From IMG/VR virus record IMGVR_UViG_2700989544_000010: DNA of 17,037 bases; one strand, given 5' to 3'. Origin of the DNA: a virus. Its lineage: Duplodnaviria; Heunggongvirae; Uroviricota; Caudoviricetes. This document shows positions 1 through 16,802 of the stretch, one piece after another. Numbering within the stretch: position 1 is the first letter of the stretch; the number at the start of each line of letters is the position of its first letter. The notes beneath the pieces were generated by a model. It ran no database searches. It had not been told where the DNA came from and saw nothing but the letters and a program-made list of their open reading frames with translations. A program made the position numbers and the translations under genes.

Positions 1-264
1 GGTTTCAGCTCCGGAGGACTCAAAGCCTTCCGGTGGTGTCTGCTCCTGCTCCCCGGCACGCCAGACCGCAGTCACACCGTGTATCACGGGATTACCGTCC
101 GTGTCCGTCAGCGGGGTTTTGTTCACCAGGATACTCTGCAGTCCCTTCACCGGGCCTTCTATCGGTCCCTCACCAATCGCATCAATCACACTCATCATCT
201 GCGTGGACTTAAGATTGTCCTTTGCCTCAACCGGCGTGTGCGCCCTGCCGCCACCTTTACCCAT
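1..264 (-). CDS. J: Tail tip / host-specificity protein J homolog, N-terminal fragment (continues beyond left edge of window)
   Basis: Minus-strand ATG at 264..262 opens a frame reading [52 protein letters not shown]..., which matches the remembered N-terminus of lambda gpJ. The frame is open to the window edge. Not in the ORF track because it is partial. Confidence 0.8.
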
Positions 265-397
265 AATGTTCATCTCAATTGGTATTATTAATCGCAGTGA
301 TAGGATATTGCACAGCTATTGCGCGATATCATCAGAACGCTGTTTGTTACCCTGTAACCAGCAAGCTCAGTCTGTTAACGGAATTAATGAGGGTTTT

Positions 398-925
398 ATG
401 AAATGTAAAATCATTGCTGCCATTGCCATGCTGACAGCAGCATCATGCGGATACGCAGCAGAACAGGAAGTCCCAATGAACCTTGTCAGTGCTGACGGAA
501 AAGAAGTCAGCATTGGAAAAATAACCATTCAGGAGACCCCCTACGGTCTGCTGTTCACACCAGCCCTTCACTCTCTGTCTGAAGGCATTCATGGTTTTCA
601 TGTGCACGAAAAAGGAAATTGCGCCCCGGCACTAAAAGACGGAAAACCGGTCGCAGCATTATCGGCTGGCGGTCACTTTGACCCGAAAAACACCGGCAAA
701 CATCTTGGCCCCTGGTCTCCGGATGGACACCTGGGCGACCTCCCTGCGCTGTTCGTGACGCATGACGGAAAAGCGAACTACCCGGTCCTGGCCCCGAGAC
801 TGAACTCATTAAAAGAGATTAAAGGGCGTTCTCTCATGCTTCATGCTGGCGGTGATAACCATCATGACCATCCGGAGCCCCTGGGCGGTGGTGGTGCGAG
901 AATGGCCTGCGGCATCATTCAATAA
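398..925 (+). CDS. sodC: Periplasmic Cu,Zn superoxide dismutase (phage-borne SodC)
   Basis: ATG at 398 is in frame with track ORF 101..925, with GAGGG about 5 nt upstream. N-terminus [20 protein letters not shown] looks like a signal peptide. Conserved Cu/Zn-SOD blocks are present: [39 protein letters not shown] and C-terminal [12 protein letters not shown]. The part of the track ORF upstream of 398 has no SOD similarity. Confidence 0.9.
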
Positions 926-932
926 TCAGTCA

Positions 933-960
933 GGTAAGGGGCGGGCCCCTTACCTTTATT
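933..960 (+). terminator. Putative intrinsic terminator of sodC (9-bp GC-rich stem GGTAAGGGG/CCCCTTACC, 4-nt loop, then TTTATT)
   Basis: Perfect inverted repeat 933..941 / 946..954 starting 8 nt after the sodC stop codon, followed by a T-rich tract on the plus strand only. Confidence 0.5.
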
Positions 961-1073
961 CCTCAGGACGATAAATCCTTTCTCCCTGAAAAGAACGGCA
1001 CATCCTCCCTCTCTGGGTTAATGTTTTTGTCGTGACATAAGAATAATTCCTTACACTCAATCTTCGTAACGCT

Positions 1074-1110
1074 CCCGCAGTTCCTGTCCGTGAGCACTGC
1101 GGGATTTTTT
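1074..1110 (+). terminator. Second plus-strand terminator-like hairpin (CCCGCAGT ... ACTGCGGG followed by ATTTTTTCGCTTTT)
   Basis: 8-bp inverted repeat 1074..1081 / 1096..1103 with a 14-nt loop and a T6 run on the plus strand. It lies just outside the stop codon of I (1116..1118). On the minus strand no U-tract follows, so it is unidirectional. Confidence 0.4.
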
Positions 1111-1115
1111 CGCTT

Positions 1116-1796
1116 TTATGCCTGCCGCCCGATAACCACCACCTTCCCGTCACCGCCTTCATCACGGGTACTGATGTCCTGGGATATACGGCGGGAGCCA
1201 ACCAGCATTTCCCCGTAAGGCACCGGCATCGGGTTCCCCTGGGCAATCATGTTATCCAGCGAGGAAAAGTACGTGTTCTGTCTGCCGTTATCCGTTGCGC
1301 GGTAATCCGGTACTTTAGCCTTCGGGGCAAGCATCTGAGCCACACCACCCAGTATCATGCTGGCTCCAAGTGAAAACAGCATCGTGGTGGCAGAAAAACC
1401 ACCGGCTGCCAGGGCTGAACCCCATAACGCCATTGATGCCCCGGCAGTGAAGAAAGAGCCCACGATGGCTGCCGCCCCCAGCACAATCTGCAGTCCACCC
1501 TTTCCGGCCCCGGCCAGTCGCGGCACAATGTGGATGACCGTTCCCTCACCCAGCTGTTCGTGAAGACGGGCGTACACCGCCTCCGGTGCCGTGTCCTCAC
1601 CGCGAATACGTATCTGGTACCAGCCTTCGTTCATCTGACGGCGGAATCCCGGCATCTGCATCGACAGGGCACGGATGGCTTCCGCTGCCGTGTTCACATA
1701 CAGGCTGAGGCGGCGGCCAAATCGTTGTAAATCCCCGTGAAGGCAGATACGTGCCAGTGGCGGTGACGCCAGGCTGAATGCGTTCGTCGTTGCCAT
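1116..1796 (-). CDS. I: Tail tip assembly protein I homolog
   Basis: Track ORF 1116..1796 (226 aa): MATTNAFSLASPPLARICLHGDLQRFGRR... with a hydrophobic Gly/Ala-rich centre and C-terminal NTYFSSLDNMIAQGN, matching remembered lambda gpI. Confidence 0.85.
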   Translation of the reverse strand: MATTNAFSLASPPLARICLHGDLQRFGRRLSLYVNTAAEAIRALSMQMPGFRRQMNEGWYQIRIRGEDTAPEAVYARLHEQLGEGTVIHIVPRLAGAGKGGLQIVLGAAAIVGSFFTAGASMALWGSALAAGGFSATTMLFSLGASMILGGVAQMLAPKAKVPDYRATDNGRQNTYFSSLDNMIAQGNPMPVPYGEMLVGSRRISQDISTRDEGGDGKVVVIGRQA

Positions 1797-2437
1797 TTTT
1801 CGGAATACCTCTCCCGTTTACTCAGTTGTTCAGGCAGATGGTGAAGCAGCTCACCGTTGCCGCAGTATATGGCGGCATGATTGGCCACCGATGCGCCAAA
1901 GCAGCACAGCAGGATATCGCCAGGCTGTGCGGAAGGCAGGGAAATCCTGTAAAAACCAGTCGCCGCCATATTGTCCAGGTAAAGGTTCTGACCGTTGCGC
2001 CACCAGTCATCCTCACGCACAAAATCCGGCAGCGTTATCCCCGCCAGATGGTATGCATCCCGGAACAGGGTGTAACAGTCCGTCACCCCGTGCTCAAAAC
2101 GACGCCCGGTCAGGTGCGGCACACAGCGGAATTTGTGAATTTCCCCCCGGCAGACCAGCCACCAGGGCAGGGCACTCTTTATCTGCAGCCGCCGGTCCGC
2201 CTCGCTCAGCCAGGGCAGACCACCAGGGTGGCTGTGAACCAGCGCCACAATCTCCCCCTGCATCTCTGCCTGCAGCCAGTCTTCCGGCGCAATACGAAAA
2301 TACGCCTCCGGCTCTGCAGAGATATTCACACAAGGGATATACCGTTCCCCCTCCGGCGTGCTTATCACGAAGCCGCACGACTCCGCAGGCGCACACCGCC
2401 GGGCATGCGCCAGAATCGCTGATTCAGTCTGTGTCAT
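1694..2437 (-). CDS. K: Tail tip assembly protein K homolog (JAB/MPN-like plus NlpC/P60-like domains)
   Basis: Internal ATG at 2437..2435 of track ORF 1694..2698 starts MTQTESAILAHARRC.... It contains a JAMM-like motif EIVALVHSHPGGLPWLSEAD and NlpC/P60-like Cys/His context (DCYTLFRDAYH ... NHAAIY). The 3' end overlaps I by about 100 nt in another frame, as I recall for lambda K/I. The track ORF residues upstream of MTQTES are judged non-coding extension. Confidence 0.85.
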   Translation of the reverse strand: MTQTESAILAHARRCAPAESCGFVISTPEGERYIPCVNISAEPEAYFRIAPEDWLQAEMQGEIVALVHSHPGGLPWLSEADRRLQIKSALPWWLVCRGEIHKFRCVPHLTGRRFEHGVTDCYTLFRDAYHLAGITLPDFVREDDWWRNGQNLYLDNMAATGFYRISLPSAQPGDILLCCFGASVANHAAIYCGNGELLHHLPEQLSKRERYSEKWQRRTHSAWRHRHWHVSAFTGIYNDLAAASACM

Positions 2438-2447
2438 AAAACAGGAT

Positions 2448-3147
2448 TTACTGCGAAAGTTTATTGATGGAAAGGAAACCGCCAAAATTGACCGCCATGC
2501 CGCGCATCTCACACCCGCGCATGCATTTACTGCATCTGTCCTTCCGGATATCCGTGGTGGGTTTATCGAACTCATCCGCCACAGCCCCGCCCGTGTAACC
2601 ACACTCATCAGAGCGGTAGGTCCACATACAGGTGTTCGCCAGCATGATACGACCGGGAAACAGCGCTCCGTCCGTCTCGGTCGGTGTGGCCAGCACAAAC
2701 GAGGCCGTCATGGCTGTCAGCTGCGACATCTGCTCCACCACCCAGCGGTCGCTCAGCTCCTGCTCCGGGTCCGCTTCCGGATTGCCCGCCACAAAATTCA
2801 CCGCATCCAGAAAACGGGCATACACCCGGCGGCGGACCACCGTGGCCCCCCACCAGGCTCTGCAGGTCCTCCGCCATCCCGGTGACCAGACCAAACAGAT
2901 TGGACACCGTCAGCGACGGTCTGGCACTGCTGCCCTTCCCGTTCATCTCAAAGCCACTGCCGTCAATCGGGTATGCCTGATATTGCCGCCCCTGCCAGGT
3001 GACCGCCTCCCCTTTTTCATTCAGCTCATTGCAGAAAAAATACCGCTCACCACCCTGTACCGTCAGGTCGATTTCCCAGAGTACCACCCGCGGTGACTGC
3101 TCTGATTTAACCGACTCGTTCAGACTTTCTTCGTGAATATCCTGCAT
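2448..3147 (-). pseudogene. L: Tail tip protein L homolog, disrupted by a frameshift near 2843..2852
   Basis: The N-terminal 101 codons (MQDIHEESLNE...MAEDLQSLVGG) are in the frame of track ORF 2608..3147. The remainder (ATVVRRRVYARFLDAVNFV...GGFLSINKLSQ) is in the frame of track ORF 2448..2894. The two halves together recapitulate lambda gpL. The switch occurs at a G6/C6 homopolymer (plus-strand CCCCCC at about 2846..2851). Confidence 0.8.
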
Positions 3148-3476
3148 CAGTTCACCACCTGCTTAAACTCGGCACTGAATTCAACCCGCAGCATGCGAAC
3201 CCGTGATGACCAGGCGGCACAGGTCACCTTTATCTGCCGCTAGGCATAAGGCGGTGTCCACAGAAACGCCTTCCAGCCACCGTGCTCTGCCAGGAATGCC
3301 TCCAGATGTCGGGCCTCCTCCCGGGTCACGGAAAGCGTCACACGGTATGTTTTCAGGTCAGCATTCAGCCCCGCCGCCATACGCTGCGAATACCCGTCAC
3401 CAAAACGCACTTCACGCACCGATGGCTGCGAGTTCACCTCCATATCCGGCTTCACTTTCCAGCGAAATGTTTTCAT
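3147..3476 (-). pseudogene. M: Tail protein M homolog interrupted by an in-frame TAG (amber) codon at 3242..3240
   Basis: Track ORF 3240..3476 gives MKTFRWKVKPDMEV...FLWTPPYA then TAG. Reading on in the same frame gives RQIKVTCAAWSSRVRMLRVEFSAEFKQVVN, ending at TGA 3149..3147, which overlaps the L start ATG. Both halves match lambda gpM, and the TAG sits where lambda has Trp in my recollection. Confidence 0.8.
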
Positions 3477-13783: not shown

Positions 13784-13986
13784 AACCTCACTCCCAGCGG
13801 ACGACGGCGACGCCGGGTTGTCCCCAGTACCGACTCCGCATCATTGATCGCCCGGTTAAGCTCATCCAGAGAAGCCGCCGTATATTCAATTCTGCGACCA
13901 TCTTTCTGGACAGACACCACCCGTTTACCGGTTAATAAATCAAGGCGCGCCTGACGCAGCGCCTGCAGTTCAGCGACTGTAACCAT
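13780..13986 (-). CDS. W: Head-tail joining protein W homolog
   Basis: Track ORF 13780..13986 (68 aa): MVTVAELQALRQARLDLLTGKRVVSVQKDGRRIEYTAASLDEL..., same length and motif (TGKRV..VQKDGRR) as lambda gpW. Its start overlaps the 3' end of A. Confidence 0.85.
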   Translation of the reverse strand: MVTVAELQALRQARLDLLTGKRVVSVQKDGRRIEYTAASLDELNRAINDAESVLGTTRRRRRPLGVRL

Positions 13987-15898
13987 TCACTCCTCCGGAC
14001 AGCTTCGCTGCCAGTTCTTTCAGGGTTGGCCGGGTCGTCTCTTCTTCCCGGGATTTTGCCAGTACAGCCAGATCAAGCTGCCAGCGTTGCACGGACACAC
14101 GTAATGCCGCGTAGGCATACACCAGGCAGTCCAGCGCTTCGTTACGCCGCTTTTTGTTATCCCACAGCAGACGCATCTTTCCTTTTTCCCACTTCTCCAC
14201 CAGCTCTTCCGCCACCAGTTGCTGCGCCTCTGTCTGCGAAAAAATCTCCGGATCATCAGGAAAACGGATGGCATACGACGTGGCTTCATCCGCAGGCGAG
14301 GGATCGGCTTTCATACGGGCATAGAGAATTTCTTTTGCGGTGTCCGTTCCCACTTCACACAGATACACGCCCCGCTGATTGCGGGTTTTTGGCATGGTGA
14401 TCACCGGCTTGCCATAGACAGATGCGCCTTTTACCGGCAGCCCCCGGAAAACACCGTGTTTTTTTGATCTCTGATAAACAATTTCACCATCGATCCCCCC
14501 GGTGTCCCAGCAGACACGGGAAATAGTCATTTCGGTGCCATCCGCATGGCGGTATTTTTTGTTGATCGCCGCATCCACACGTAACAGCGTCTCTTCCTCA
14601 TCAGGACGCCCCATAATGATGATTTTATCCACCAGAAAGGCTTCCTCTCCCGGAGCCCATCCCCAGACATACATCTCAAAACGGTTTCGCTGCGAGTCAA
14701 TGCCCGCCGTCAGATAAACCACCCGGGCAGGCACCGCCGCCGTGTAACGCACCACCTTATCCATCAGTACCTAGTGATCGAGTTTTTCGCCCACGGCCTC
14801 TTCCCAGGTCTCGCCCAGCGTGGTGTTCACAAAGGTTTTCAGGCCGTTGGGATCTTTCAGTGCATCCAGCCAGTCATAGACAATCTGTACCCAGGTGGTG
14901 AACGGACTGTACGCCGTCCAGATATGGAACGTGATGGAGCGCGGCGGCGGAATTTCATCACCCCGGGCGCTGAAAAACGTCAGACCGTCACGGGTCCACA
15001 TGCCCGTGTTTTCACAGATCCACCGCCCGTTGCTCTGGTCCAGTTCAGACTGATGGATCACGCAGCCATGATGTTCACAGAGGTAGAAAACACTTTCAGG
15101 GCTGTCCTTCTCCCATTTAAGCCCAAAAGGCGTGGACTCATCGCCAAATTTCAGATACTGCTCCTCCCCACAGTGCGGGCAGGGCACATAAAAACGCATA
15201 AAATGCGCCGACTCGTTAGCGGCTTTTTCGATCTGGCAGGTGCCTTTGATTTTAGGCGTCGAGCCGCGAATGGATTTTGGCCACACCGACCCCTCAATAC
15301 GCTTATCCCCCAGCAGGGTTGGCGAGCCCTCTTTTTCGACATCCGGCTCGAACGAGGAAAGTTCGTCATAGCAGACCACGTCCACGGATTTTTCACGGTA
15401 GTTTTTGGCGGCAGCGCCGCCCAGGCACCAGAAACCGACGCCCGATGAAAAGCGTTTCAGCGTGAGAGTATTGTCACGATGTTTACGACCCAGCCATGGG
15501 GAAAGGTCTTTCAGGCATGGCACGTTCCGAATCGTCGCCTCCACGTGAGACTTCATAAAATCTTCAGCGGCAGAATCCGTGGGCTGAAAAAGCAGACTGT
15601 TTCGGGATTTATGCTCAATAAAATACCCGACCACCCCCAGCAACATCTTTGTATAGCCAACACGGGCAGATTTAATCAGATTAACAGTGCGGATCTGATC
15701 ATTCCCCATGCTGTTCATGATGGCGATCTGGAATGGCAGCGTTTTCCATTCGCCCTCACCATATGAAGATTCTTTAGGCAGATAATAATTTTGATCAGCC
15801 CATTCAACTGGCGTCACCGGCAATGCCCTTATCAGGGGCTGTAATGCAGTTGTGACAGCGCTCATCATATTATTCAGTTGTTGCTCTGATATATTCAT
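13970..15898 (-). pseudogene. A: Terminase large subunit A homolog, interrupted by an in-frame TAG codon at 14773..14771
   Basis: The N-terminal part is in track ORF 14771..15955 from internal ATG 15898 (MNISEQQLNN..., Walker-A-like KSARVGYTK) and ends ...TTLGETWEEAVGEKLDH-TAG. The same frame continues VLMDKVVRYTAAVPARVVYLTAGIDSQ... as track ORF 13970..14764. The combined length matches lambda gpA, and the TAG replaces a sense codon (Glu in lambda as I recall). Confidence 0.85.
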
Positions 15899-16376
15899 CA
15901 AGTAAATCCGGTAATTTATCCCCTGCCCGCGCACACTGATTTGCCCCCTTAGCAATAAGGGTTTTCAGATGGTCAAGATGGCGCGGTGTTAAATCAGGAA
16001 ACTGTCGCTGCATGGATAAAGGGATGGAATCAAGCGTACTGGATAACGCCATTGCCAGCTTACTGAGGGCAAAAATACAGAATCCGGTGTCAATAAGCTT
16101 ACCTTCGGTTACCTGATTTTTAAGTTTTTGAGCTACGGCCTGTTCTTCTGTCAGTTCAGCTCTGGCCCGAAGCAGCCTTTCCTCCAGATCGCCCTCGTCA
16201 TCAGGTATTCTCTGATTGTGTTGTCGCCGCTCGCGATCTATCTCCAGTACAGTTTTAACGTCATAAAAAACTTCCCTCCCACGACGCTCAACAGGAGGAA
16301 CGCCCCATTTATCAAATGCCTGAACAGATATACCGATGGAGGAGGCCATATCACTTTTATTCAATAAAAAGGCCAT
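15870..16376 (-). CDS. Nu1: Terminase small subunit Nu1-like (C-terminal half lambda-like, N-terminal DNA-binding part divergent)
   Basis: Track ORF 15870..16481. The likely start is the internal ATG at 16376..16374 (MAFLLNKSDMASSIGISVQAFDKWG...), preceded by GGAGAGGAG. The C-terminal FCIFALSKLAMALSSTLDSIPLSMQRQFPDLTPRHLDHLK...LPDLLDEYI matches lambda gpNu1. The 3' end overlaps A by about 29 nt. Confidence 0.8.
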   Translation of the reverse strand: MAFLLNKSDMASSIGISVQAFDKWGVPPVERRGREVFYDVKTVLEIDRERRQHNQRIPDDEGDLEERLLRARAELTEEQAVAQKLKNQVTEGKLIDTGFCIFALSKLAMALSSTLDSIPLSMQRQFPDLTPRHLDHLKTLIAKGANQCARAGDKLPDLLDEYIRATTE

Positions 16377-16591
16377 CTCCTCTCCATAAGCCATCGATAA
16401 AAAGCGATACAACAACCATGTGTTTTTACAAAACCATTTGATATCATTGACATTTTTCGCATTGACGACATCAAAACACATCGTAAGGTTGTTGTATTTA
16501 TTTTATTTTCACCTTACTTATCAATTAGATATGCCAAACAATTAAACAACAACTCCCCCTCAAAAAATCTCATAAATAGCGAAAACCCGCG
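16377..16591 (-). promoter_or_regulatory. Candidate cosB region (terminase small-subunit binding sites), not lambda-like in sequence
   Basis: AT-rich spacer between cosN and the Nu1 start, the same position and similar length as lambda cosB. It diverges from lambda after the first about 22 nt inside cosN and contains ACAACAAC motifs in both orientations (about 16488..16496 and 16547..16554). Confidence 0.4.
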
Positions 16592-16603
16592 AGGTCGCCG
16601 CCC
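16592..16603 (-). other. cosN cohesive-end site (12-nt GGGCGGCGACCT on minus strand)
   Basis: Plus-strand AGGTCGCCGCCC at 16592..16603 is the reverse complement of the lambda cohesive end. Identity with lambda extends on the Nu1 side (CGCGGGTTTTCGCTATTTATGA) and on the other side (CGTAACCTGTCGGATCGCCGGAAAGGACCCGC, matching the lambda right end). Confidence 0.8.
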
Positions 16604-16665
16604 CGTAACCTGTCGGATCGCCGGAAAGGACCCGCAAAATGATAATAATTATCATCTACATATCA
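16604..16665 (-). promoter_or_regulatory. cosQ-like region / phage genome right end
   Basis: Minus-strand ...CGTTGTGATATGTAGATGATAATTATTATCATTTTGCGGGTCCTTTCCGGCGATCCGACAGGTTACG matches the remembered last about 60 nt of the lambda genome (cosQ) with a few substitutions. Confidence 0.6.
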
Positions 16666-16802
16666 CAACGTGCATCTACGCCATCAAACCACGTCAAATA
16701 ATCAATTATGACGCAGGTATCGTATTAATTGATCTGCGTCAAATTAACGTAAAAGCAACTTCAGATAATACAAATCAGCAACACTGAATATGGGGAAACA
16801 TT

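What the first reader, a model, noticed from the sequence alone, without database searches (positions are those of the whole stretch)
16377..16665. Mosaic packaging origin: lambda-type cosN/cosQ with non-lambda cosB and Nu1 N-terminal domain
The 12-nt cohesive end and about 20 nt on either side, plus the cosQ-like right end, are nearly identical to lambda. The Nu1-proximal spacer diverges completely from lambda cosB, and the N-terminal part of Nu1 (the DNA-recognition part in lambda) is also unlike lambda while its C-terminal, A-interacting half is conserved. This is the pattern expected for a lambdoid phage with a different packaging specificity, as in the lambda versus phage 21 cosB/Nu1 specificity swap.
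Basis: partly seen in the sequence, partly recalled or inferred. Interest (0 to 1): 0.45.

Follow-up and report, generated by a model that had tools for sequence, protein, structure and literature searches.

The report
N15/Monarch-type cos site in prophage
This is the DNA-packaging start site of a decayed lambda-like prophage of E. coli: its cutting site is lambda's, but its recognition site and matching protein domain are a swapped-in cassette of the phage N15 type, a combination already described in 2015 and present in about 5% of complete E. coli genomes.

Summary
cosQ, cosN and bp -16 to +34 around the cut site are lambda's. From bp +42 to the small-terminase (TerS) start there is no similarity to lambda or phage 21 cosB.

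The protein part is overstated. TerS belongs to the Nu1 family throughout. It is 35% identical to lambda Nu1 over residues 1-48 and only 43% over residues 93-168. The clean mosaic is against an O157-type prophage: 97-100% identical on both sides, unrelated across about 460 bp (cosB plus TerS codons 1-~90).

That cassette is N15-type. TerS 1-48 is 77% identical to N15 gp1, and the recognition helix ISVQAFDKWGV is identical. The core GTTGTTGT sits at bp 51-58, inside N15's mapped R3. It recurs inverted at bp 109-116 and direct at bp 188-195, with an IHF-like site at lambda/21's I1 position.

This matches the "Monarch group" of Feiss et al. 2015: N15 specificity with a lambda-style R3-I1-R2-R1 cosB. 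The R and IHF blocks are invariant across diverged relatives. At least 297 of 5426 complete E. coli genomes carry the cassette.

The host prophage is defective: nonsense codon in TerL, IS1203 nearby, decayed tail genes. The finding is real but ordinary.

The parts
16627..16633 (-). cosQ (GGGTCCT), the packaging-termination subsite, at bp -30..-24 from the left cohesive end
   Evidence: Read directly from the sequence. It is identical to lambda, 21 and N15. It is invariant in all 9 family members aligned. Phage 21's record annotates the same heptamer as cosQ.
16592..16603 (-). cosN, the 12-nt cohesive-end sequence GGGCGGCGACCT (bp 1-12)
   Evidence: 12/12 match to lambda. [quoted passage not shown]
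16570..16591 (-). bp 13-34, the cosN-proximal segment identical to lambda. The left recombination junction of the cassette lies just beyond it, at bp 35-42.
   Evidence: The mismatch list against lambda has its first differences at bp 35 and 37, with full divergence from bp 42. Megablast matches to lambda-like phages end at window 16563.
16545..16556 (-). R3, the proposed critical TerS binding site (bp 48-59, GGAGTTGTTGTT; core GTTGTTGT at 16546..16553)
   Evidence: It occupies the same bp 48-59 as N15 R3 (GAGGTTGTTGTT) and matches it 10/12. The bases at bp 54-59, whose scrambling cut N15hy4 yield 100-fold, match 6/6 (PMC4669245). GTTGTTGTTT is invariant in 9 family members. It is also present at the equivalent place in 8 distant genera that have the same TerS helix.
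16519..16531 (+). I1, an IHF-like site between R3 and R2 (TATCAATTAGATA, bp 73-85, on the bottom strand of the phage)
   Evidence: It matches WATCAANNNNTTR at 8/9 specified positions. Phage 21's I1 is annotated at bp 74-86 on the same strand. The TTGATAA core is invariant across the family. Binding was not tested.
16487..16495 (+). R2, an inverted copy of the R core (GGTTGTTGT on the + strand, bp 109-117)
   Evidence: Exact 9-mer match; 0.15 are expected per window. It forms inverted-repeat pairs with R3 and with R1. ACAACAACCT is invariant in the family. Its position matches R2 of phage 21, annotated at bp 107-122.
16431..16443 (-). Second IHF-like site, between R2 and R1 (TATCAAATGGTTT, bp 161-173)
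   Evidence: 8/9 match to the IHF consensus. ATCAnAnnGTTT is conserved in all 9 family members. cosB holds 3 such matches against 0.73 expected from its composition, P about 0.04. Its function is inferred only.
16409..16417 (-). R1, a direct copy of the R core (GGTTGTTGT, bp 187-195)
   Evidence: Exact 9-mer match. It is conserved in 8 of 9 family members, with one T>A variant. It lies 79 bp from R2, against about 43 bp in lambda and 21.
15870..16376 (-). terS (Nu1 homologue), 168 aa and intact. Residues 1-48 form the N15-type DNA-binding domain, with recognition helix ISVQAFDKWGV. Residues 93-168 are of the O157/PhiR12 type.
   Evidence: Pfam Phage_Nu1, E 2.9e-21.
16100..16563 (-). The swapped specificity cassette: cosB plus terS codons 1 to about 90 (bp 41 to about 500)
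   Evidence: Binned identity to the O157 prophage L006 is 0.93-1.00 for bp -299..+20, except one bin at 0.85. It is 0.40-0.72 across bp 21-500, then 0.90-1.00 from bp 501 on. Family members deer48, RM10410 and Oki01690 share the cassette but have different left flanks.
13970..15898 (-). terL (gpA homologue), inactivated by an in-frame TAG at 14771..14773 (codon 376)
   Evidence: The translation shows a single internal stop. L004 and L006 have CAG at that codon. Pfam GpA_ATPase lies before the stop, and GpA_nuclease is split by it.

Best explanation
The region is the cos site of a lambdoid prophage found in O111-type STEC strains. Its packaging-recognition module is of the N15 specificity class, laid out in the lambda-like tripartite form R3-I1-R2-R1. 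This is the "Monarch group" of Feiss et al. 2015.

Proposed mechanism, by analogy with lambda:
- A dimer of the TerS N-terminal winged-helix domain reads GTTGTTGT cores through its recognition helix ISVQAFDKWGV.
- IHF bends the DNA at I1 so that R3 and the inverted R2 are presented together.
- TerS bound at R3, at the same distance from cosN as in lambda and N15, positions TerL to nick the lambda-identical cosN.
- cosQ serves packaging termination.

The cassette (cosB plus about 90 TerS codons) was exchanged by recombination. One crossover lies in the conserved cosN-proximal DNA (bp 35-42) and the other inside terS (about codon 90). The TerS C-terminus therefore still matches its own TerL.

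Status of each step:
- Shown here: the sequence anatomy, the homology, the conservation, and the covariation between helix and site.
- Inferred: TerS binding, IHF binding, and the packaging specificity.

In this particular copy TerL carries a nonsense codon. The site could be used only in trans, by a co-resident phage of the same specificity.
For: Match to N15 and position of the sites:
- The recognition helix and flanks are identical to N15 gp1. The DNA-binding domain matches at 37/48, against 17/48 for lambda, 10/48 for 21 and 5/48 for the O157 type.
- The R3 core lies at bp 51-58, inside N15's mutationally mapped R3 at bp 48-59 (PMC4669245).
- Three copies of the core occur in direct/inverted/direct order. 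There are 5 GTTGTTGT in the whole window against 0.56 expected, and 3 of them lie in cosB.
- R3 and R2 positions equal those annotated for phage 21.
- The I1 match has the same position and strand as in 21.

Conservation and covariation:
- In 9 relatives of 75-100% identity, the invariant blocks are exactly cosQ, R3, I1, R2, the second IHF-like site and R1.
- Eight distant genera with the same helix all carry GGTTGTTGTTTA at the R3 position.
- A variant with helix VSATAFDKW carries GGTTGGTGT repeats instead.
- The mosaic junctions are mapped.

Literature and frequency:
- The cassette occurs in at least 297 of 5426 complete E. coli genomes. Most copies checked sit next to terL genes annotated as full length.
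Against: - No binding or packaging experiment exists for this sequence, nor, as far as I could find, for any Monarch-type cosB.
- I could not obtain the Monarch sequence itself. The primary paper, Virology 482:260, is not held. Assignment to that group therefore rests on its published description.
- R1 is 79 bp from R2, against about 43 bp in lambda and 21. The geometry may not be lambda-like beyond R2.
- The IHF matches are only modestly above the composition-based expectation (P about 0.04).
- This copy sits in a decayed prophage, so it need not be functional today.
Confidence: 0.85

Rival explanations
1. It is a phage-21-type specificity swap. Under this reading, cosB and the TerS N-terminus are the phage 21 alleles.
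For: The layout is the same as in 21: lambda-identical cosQ and cosN, then R3-I1-R2-R1, with R3 and R2 at the same bp positions.
Against: - The DNA-binding domain matches 21 gp1 at only 10/48.
- Overall BLASTP identity is 32%.
- Sensitive blastn of the cosB region finds no phage 21 record, although OL657228 is in the collection.
- The repeated cores in 21's annotated R sites are TGTCGG-like, not GTTGTTGT.
Confidence: 0.02
2. It is the simple N15-type cosB. Under this reading, only R3 (plus a remote rR2 inside terS) matters, and the 140 bp between R3 and terS are filler.
For: - The R3 and the recognition helix are N15's.
- N15 needs only R3 (PMC4669245).
- The simple layout is the one found in 8 other genera.
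- A degenerate ACAACAC sits at +152 in terS, at window 16224..16218.
Against: - terS starts at bp 228, not bp 89 as in N15.
- Exact inverted and direct copies of the 9-mer are present, and they are invariant while the DNA between them diverges.
- There is no exact rR2.
- The IHF-like site is conserved at the I1 position.
Confidence: 0.08
3. It is a drifting relic. Under this reading, the spacer is a former lambda cosB that decayed in a dead prophage and now has no recognition function.
For: The prophage is defective. TerL has a nonsense codon, IS1203 sits 320 bp away, the tail gene L is split and J is missing.
Against: - The same cassette, with invariant R and IHF blocks, is present in at least 297 genomes at 75-100% identity. 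Most copies checked sit next to terL genes annotated as full length.
- terS is intact, and its DNA-binding domain is identical to that of relatives.
- The spacer shows no residual similarity to lambda cosB.
- The boundaries are sharp, as expected from recombination rather than drift.
Confidence: 0.03
4. It is the cos of a phage satellite (PICI) that redirects a helper terminase through an Rpp-like protein.
For: - PICI cos sites keep cosQ and cosN and replace cosB (PMC9026076).
- The same cosB cassette does occur in terminase-less islands elsewhere.
Against: - Here the downstream gene is a full-length Nu1-family TerS with the TerL-binding C-terminus.
- It is followed by terL, portal, capsid and tail genes.
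- There is no integrase or replication island in the window.
Confidence: 0.02

Closest known systems
Monarch-group prophage cos (Feiss et al. 2015, Virology 482:260; described in PLoS One 10:e0141934, PMC4669245)
   Same: - N15-type R3 sequence and an N15-identical TerS recognition helix.
- Three R sequences with R2 inverted.
- An IHF site between R3 and R2.
- No exact rR2 inside terS.
- Lambda-like cosQ and cosN.
   Different: This copy may differ in three ways that may or may not hold for Monarch: its cosN is exactly lambda's, it has a 79-bp R2-R1 interval with a second conserved IHF-like site, and its TerS C-terminus is of the O157/PhiR12 type.
Phage N15 cos and gp1 (NC_001901)
   Same: - The recognition helix ISVQAFDKWGV is identical.
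- The DNA-binding domain is 77% identical.
- R3 lies at the same bp 48-59, with the critical bp 54-59 identical.
- cosQ is identical.
   Different: - N15 has a simple cosB: R3 only, terS at bp 89, and rR2 inside terS.
- Its cosN differs from lambda's at bp 9 and 12.
- Its TerS C-terminus is lambda-like.
- The window has R2, R1 and IHF-like sites, terS at bp 228, lambda's cosN, and a TerS C-terminus only 43% identical to N15's.
Phage lambda cos and Nu1 (J02459)
   Same: - cosQ, cosN and bp -16..+34 are identical.
- The subsite order is the same: cosQ-cosN-R3-I1-R2-R1-terS.
- The R3-to-cosN distance and the roughly 58-bp R3-R2 distance are the same.
- TerS belongs to the Nu1 family and TerL to the gpA family.
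   Different: - The R sequence is GTTGTTGT, against lambda's CGTTTCC-type.
- The recognition helix shares only S and W with lambda's.
- R2-R1 is 79 bp, against 42 bp.
- TerS is 37% and TerL 70% identical in protein.
Phage 21 cos and gp1 (OL657228), the classical lambda/21 specificity pair
   Same: The principle is the same: shared cosQ and cosN, with a private cosB and TerS DNA-binding domain. The subsite coordinates are also the same (R3 50-65, I1 74-86, R2 107-122).
   Different: The R sequences and recognition helix are unrelated. The DNA-binding domain matches at 10/48.

Membership tests
lambda-like cos (12-nt 5' cohesive ends; cosQ-cosN-cosB) | A 12-bp cosN with strong identity to lambda's GGGCGGCGACCT | tested here: met
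   12/12 at window 16603..16592.
lambda-like cos (12-nt 5' cohesive ends; cosQ-cosN-cosB) | The 7-bp cosQ GGGTCCT about 30 bp to the left of cosN | tested here: met
   Present at 16633..16627, i.e. bp -30..-24. Invariant in the family.
lambda-like cos (12-nt 5' cohesive ends; cosQ-cosN-cosB) | Terminase actually nicks here to give cohesive ends | not testable with these tools
   This needs virion DNA end mapping or an in vitro cos cleavage assay.
N15 packaging-specificity class | TerS recognition helix identical or near-identical to N15 gp1 | tested here: met
   ISVQAFDKWGV is identical. The DNA-binding domain matches at 37/48.
N15 packaging-specificity class | An R3 matching N15 R3 at bp 48-59, especially bp 54-59 GTTGTT | tested here: met
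   GGAGTTGTTGTT against GAGGTTGTTGTT is 10/12. bp 54-59 match 6/6, at the same distance from cosN.
N15 packaging-specificity class | Packaged by N15-specific terminase but not by lambda or 21 terminase | not testable with these tools
   This needs a helper-packaging assay, as in PMC4669245.
Monarch subgroup (complex cosB with N15-type R sequences) | Three R sequences, with R2 inverted relative to R3 and R1 | tested here: met
   Cores lie at bp 51-58 (direct), 109-116 (inverted) and 188-195 (direct). Chance expectation is 0.56 per window. They are conserved in relatives.
Monarch subgroup (complex cosB with N15-type R sequences) | [quoted passage not shown] | tested here: inconclusive
   An 8/9 consensus match lies at bp 73-85, on the same strand and at the same position as the annotated I1 of phage 21. 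Its core is conserved. The enrichment is modest and binding is untested.
Monarch subgroup (complex cosB with N15-type R sequences) | The rR2 sequence inside terS is absent | tested here: met
   There is no exact R core inside terS. Only a degenerate ACAACAC is present, at 16224..16218.
Monarch subgroup (complex cosB with N15-type R sequences) | Sequence identity to the Monarch prophage cos itself | not testable with these tools
   The primary paper and the Monarch sequence are not held.
N15 simple cosB | A single R3, no IHF site, terS starting at about bp 89, and rR2 about 200 bp distal inside terS | tested here: not met
   terS starts at bp 228, R2, R1 and IHF-like sites are present, and there is no exact rR2.
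lambda packaging specificity | Lambda R consensus (CGTTTCC-type) and the Nu1 recognition helix with Q20/E24 | tested here: not met
   The spacer is 25-37% identical to lambda, which is chance level. The helix shares only S and W with lambda's.
phage 21 packaging specificity | Phage 21 R sequences and the gp1 recognition helix | tested here: not met
   There is no blastn similarity, and the DNA-binding domain matches at 10/48.
Nu1/TerS protein family (PF07471) | Full-length match to the Phage_Nu1 profile above the curated cut-off | tested here: met
   76.2 bits against a cut-off of 30. Residues 6-149 match profile positions 4-163 of 164.
Gram-negative PICI cos with Rpp | cos followed by a short rpp gene that lacks the TerL-binding C-terminus, in an island without terminase or head genes | tested here: not met
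   The downstream gene is a full-length TerS, followed by terL and a complete head module.

The most novel reading that the evidence does not exclude
The E. coli tripartite form may be a distinct architecture rather than a lambda copy. It would be R3-I1-R2-I'-R1, with a second conserved IHF-like site and a 79-bp R2-R1 interval, allowing two alternative or simultaneous IHF-bent TerS-dimer complexes. It may also have been built up from the widespread simple N15-type cosB, which is the only form I saw in 8 other genera. That would reverse the published proposal that N15's simple cosB arose from a Monarch-like one by deletion. The same cassette is also borne by terminase-less capsid-encoding islands. 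That would make it a shared packaging address between helper phages and satellites.
Probability: 0.2. Interest if true: 0.4.

Novelty: new member of a known kind. Interest (0 to 1): 0.2.

Why it matters
Packaging specificity decides which co-resident prophages, satellites and recombinants a lambdoid phage can mobilise. STEC strains carry many lambdoid prophages side by side. Knowing that this one bears the N15/Monarch address on a lambda cosN predicts two things. Its DNA can be packaged only by terminases of that class. By analogy with N15, such terminases might also package lambda-type DNA. For the field this is a further, clean natural example of the cosB + TerS-DBD cassette moving as one recombination unit. 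It is not a new principle. The class was described bioinformatically in 2015, and the cassette is common in sequenced E. coli.

Tried and rejected
- Qin prophage (nohA) of K-12 as a stand-in for phage 21: its cosB turned out to be lambda-type. I used the annotated phage 21 genome OL657228 instead.\n- The O157 prophage cosB as 21-type: rejected. Only bp 1-41 match phage 21. It is yet another cosB/DBD type, shared with the PhiR12 phages.\n- PDB sequence search with TerS: only a marginal hit to lambda TerS (6hn7_B, E 0.48). Homology rests on Pfam and BLASTP instead.\n- The third exact GGTTGTTGT at 16830..16838: rejected as part of cos. It lies in the ynfO-like gene and is also present in lambda and the O157 prophage, which have other specificities.\n- The 203-aa ORF 15870..16481 spanning cosB: rejected as the gene. 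The start at 16376 matches N15 gene 1 and most PGAP calls, although PGAP picks the second ATG at 16349 in L004.\n- The primary Monarch paper (PMC4461450) and the lambda/21 contacts paper (PMC5006951): not held.\n- The genome-contig scan returned only distant genera, one genome per species, and no E. coli. It was useful for covariation but not for close relatives.\n- Structure prediction was not run. Pfam and BLASTP already settle family membership, and a model would not address specificity.

Full report
**Orientation and coordinates.** The window carries lambda-like head and tail genes on the minus strand, so cos reads right-to-left. On the minus strand the sequence ...GGGTCCTTTCCGGCGATCCGACAGGTTACG|GGGCGGCGACCT|CGCGGGTTTTCGCTATTTATGA... 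places cosN at window 16603..16592 and cosQ at 16633..16627. [quoted passage not shown] The small-terminase gene (terS, the Nu1 homologue) starts at ATG 16376 (bp 228) and ends at 15870. It encodes 168 aa, has the same length and start context as N15 gene 1, and is preceded by GGAGAGGAG.

**Checking the observation.**
- Against lambda (J02459), the window differs between bp -60 and +41 only at bp -44, -36, -32, -17, +35 and +37. It loses all similarity from bp +42.
- Megablast of 16300..16720 against 50,697 phage records matches only 16720..16563. Lambda gives 93.7% and E 3e-60. No record covers the spacer.
- Sensitive blastn of 16150..16565 returns only three records. All three match inside terS, and two of them are phage N15 at 79.6% over 98 nt. 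Lambda and phage 21 are absent.
- The DNA claims are therefore correct. The protein claims are overstated.
- TerS is a Nu1-family protein over its whole length (Pfam PF07471, 76 bits, residues 6-149). It aligns to lambda Nu1 from residue 5 at 37% identity, E 9e-33.
- Domain by domain, identity to lambda is 17/48 for residues 1-48 and 33/76 for residues 93-168. It is 15/38 for the last 38 residues, the TerL-binding part.
- The C-terminal half is thus not notably more lambda-like than the N-terminal domain. TerL is 70% identical to gpA in protein.

**Where the mosaic really is.** Binned identity along bp -300..+1100 gives the boundaries.

| Segment | Against O157 prophage (L006) | Against lambda |
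|---|---|---|
| bp -299..+20 | 0.93-1.00, except one bin at 0.85 | about 90% or more, same exception |
| bp 21..500 | 0.40-0.72 | 0.30-0.75 |
| bp 501 onward | 0.90-1.00 | about 55-70% |

- TerS residues 93-168 are 76/76 identical to the O157/PhiR12 TerS, and residues 1-48 only 5/48.
- So a cassette of about 460 bp, comprising cosB plus roughly the first 90 codons of terS, has been exchanged.
- One junction lies in the conserved cosN-proximal DNA (bp 35-42). The other lies inside terS.
- Relatives that share the cassette (deer48, RM10410, Oki01690, P393F10) have different left flanks and even different cosN sequences. The cassette therefore moves as a unit.

**What the cassette is.**
- TerS residues 1-48 are 37/48 identical to N15 gp1. 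The stretch ISVQAFDKWGV, which aligns with the lambda recognition helix, is identical.
- N15's critical TerS site R3 was mapped by block mutations to bp 48-59 (GAGGTT GTTGTT). Scrambling bp 54-59 reduced yield 100-fold (PMC4669245).
- The window has GGAGTT GTTGTT at bp 48-59. The critical half is identical and lies at the identical distance from cosN.
- The core GTTGTTGT occurs 5 times in the 17-kb window, against 0.56 expected. Three of these are in cosB: bp 51-58 direct, bp 109-116 inverted and bp 188-195 direct.
- These three extend to AGTTGTTGTTTAATTG, GGTTGTTGTATTTATT and GGTTGTTGTATCGCTT.
- That is the lambda/21 layout R3, inverted R2, R1. Phage 21's record annotates R3 at 50-65, I1 at 74-86, R2 at 107-122 and R1 at 150-166.
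- An 8/9 match to the IHF consensus WATCAANNNNTTR lies at bp 73-85, on the same strand as the annotated I1 of 21.
- Only 6 matches of that quality occur in the whole window, and 3 are inside cosB. Corrected for the 34% G+C of cosB, this is 3 against 0.73 expected, P about 0.04.

**Conservation and covariation.**
- The cosB cassette is found in 435 of 5426 complete E. coli genomes. In 297 of them coverage is at least 80%, at 75-100% identity.
- Nine members spanning that range were aligned. The invariant blocks are cosQ, GTTGTTGTTT (R3), TTGATAA (I1), ACAACAACCT (R2), ATCAnAnnGTTT (a second IHF-like site at bp 161-173) and GGTTGTT(G/A)T (R1). The DNA between these blocks diverges or carries indels.
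- Eight prophages from other genera encode the same helix: Pseudocitrobacter, Erwinia, Aeromonas, Pseudomonas, Oceanimonas, Halomonas and an Oceanospirillales bacterium. All have GGTTGTTGTTTA at the R3 position. Most have an inverted CAACAAC about 150-160 nt into terS, which is N15's simple cosB with rR2.
- An E. coli variant (ATCC 25922) with helix VSATAFDKW carries GGTTGGTGT/ACACCAACC repeats instead.
- This helix-site covariation is the best computational evidence available that the GTTGTTGT cores are the TerS recognition sites.

**Comparison with what is known.**
- Feiss and co-workers define lambda-like phages by their cohesive ends. They document three specificities: lambda, 21 and N15.
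[quoted passage not shown] These have an N15-identical recognition helix and strong R-site identity. [quoted passage not shown]
- The window fits every feature of that description that I could test.
- I could not compare it with the Monarch sequence itself, because the primary paper is not held.
- It is not the 21 type.
- It is not the simple N15 type, because terS is at bp 228 rather than bp 89.
- It is not a PICI cos, because the downstream genes are a full-length TerS, TerL and the head genes.
[quoted passage not shown] Whether Monarch-type terminases behave likewise is untested.

**Likely mechanism.** Everything in this paragraph is inferred by homology and not shown here.
- A TerS dimer docks its two winged-helix domains on R3 and the inverted R2, which are brought together by an IHF bend at I1.
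- TerS bound at R3 positions TerL to nick cosN.
- R1 is accessory.
- cosQ acts at termination.
- One difference from lambda and 21 is the 79-bp R2-R1 interval, against about 43 bp. It contains the second conserved IHF-like site, whose role is unknown.

**State of this copy.**
- terL has an in-frame TAG at 14773..14771 (codon 376). Near-identical prophages have CAG there. The stop falls near the start of the nuclease domain, 52 residues into its Pfam match.
- An IS1203-family element begins at 16922 and truncates the ynfO/ylcI-like gene. No complete genome in the collection has that junction.
- Tail gene L is split over two ORFs, and J is missing next to sodC.
- The nearest relatives are prophages of O111:H8/H- STEC and bovine isolates.
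- terS and cos are intact, so the site could still be used in trans.

**Verdict.** However, this is an instance of an already described class, the N15/Monarch specificity with a complex cosB. It is common in E. coli and sits in a defective prophage. Interest is low.

Noticed in passing
window 14771..14773 (within terL 13970..15898, minus strand): The large terminase gene has a single in-frame TAG at codon 376. The near-identical prophages L004 and L006 have CAG there. Because of this stop, the prophage cannot cut its own cos.
   Followed up: yes
window 16922..17037: The left end of an IS3-family IS1203 (IS629-like) element truncates the ynfO/ylcI-like gene (16803..16922), about 320 bp left of cosN. 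None of the 5426 complete E. coli genomes shows this junction; the best hits all stop at window 16921.
   Followed up: partly
window 101..3476: The tail module looks decayed. The L-like gene is split between ORFs 2608..3147 and 1694..2698, and the M-like ORF is short. No J gene lies between the I-like gene (1116..1796) and a phage-borne sodC (superoxide dismutase precursor, within 101..925, + strand).
   Followed up: partly
L028 (E. coli AR_0085, NZ_CP029741) 11600..22300; also L020 and L024: The same R3-I1-R2-R1 cosB, with cosQ and a cosN variant GGGCGTCGACCT, sits at the end of an ~11-kb island between allC and allE. The island encodes an integrase, a RepA helicase, SSB, PerC, a major capsid protein, a decoration protein and a head-tail connector, but no terminase. 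It looks like a phage satellite that copies the full Monarch/N15-type packaging address rather than using an Rpp-type redirector.
   Followed up: partly
L021 (OkiPb01690) and L024 (Z0117EC0133), cos region: The same cosB cassette is joined to a quite different 12-bp cut-site sequence (GTCGGTAGACGC or GTCATGGGACGC), while cosQ is kept. cosB and cosN types therefore assort independently.
   Followed up: no
L025 (E. coli ATCC 25922) 690..1376: A sister specificity variant has R repeats GGTTGGTGT/ACACCAACC in place of GGTTGTTGT, and TerS helix VSATAFDKW in place of ISVQAFDKW. This is a natural covariation of site and helix.
   Followed up: partly
L010-L017 (Pseudocitrobacter, Erwinia, Aeromonas, Pseudomonas, Oceanimonas, Halomonas, Oceanospirillales): All eight carry the helix ISVQAFDKWGV with a single GGTTGTTGTTTA at the R3 position, and usually an inverted CAACAAC about 150-160 nt into terS. 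The simple N15 layout is thus the widespread one, and the tripartite layout was seen only in E. coli. This sits awkwardly with the published idea that N15's cosB arose by deletion from a Monarch-like one.
   Followed up: partly
L006 (O157 AR-0430) and L009 (phage PhiR12_2), cos region: The O157/PhiR12 prophages share this window's TerS C-terminus and TerL. They have yet another cosB and TerS N-terminal domain (VATQTEVARHLSLTDRQLRRLQ...) that is neither lambda-, 21- nor N15-type. This may be a further packaging specificity.
   Followed up: partly
window 16830..16838: A third exact GGTTGTTGT lies in the ynfO-like gene, 235 bp left of cosN. It is also present at the same place in lambda and the O157 prophage, so it is most likely a coding coincidence.
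   Followed up: yes
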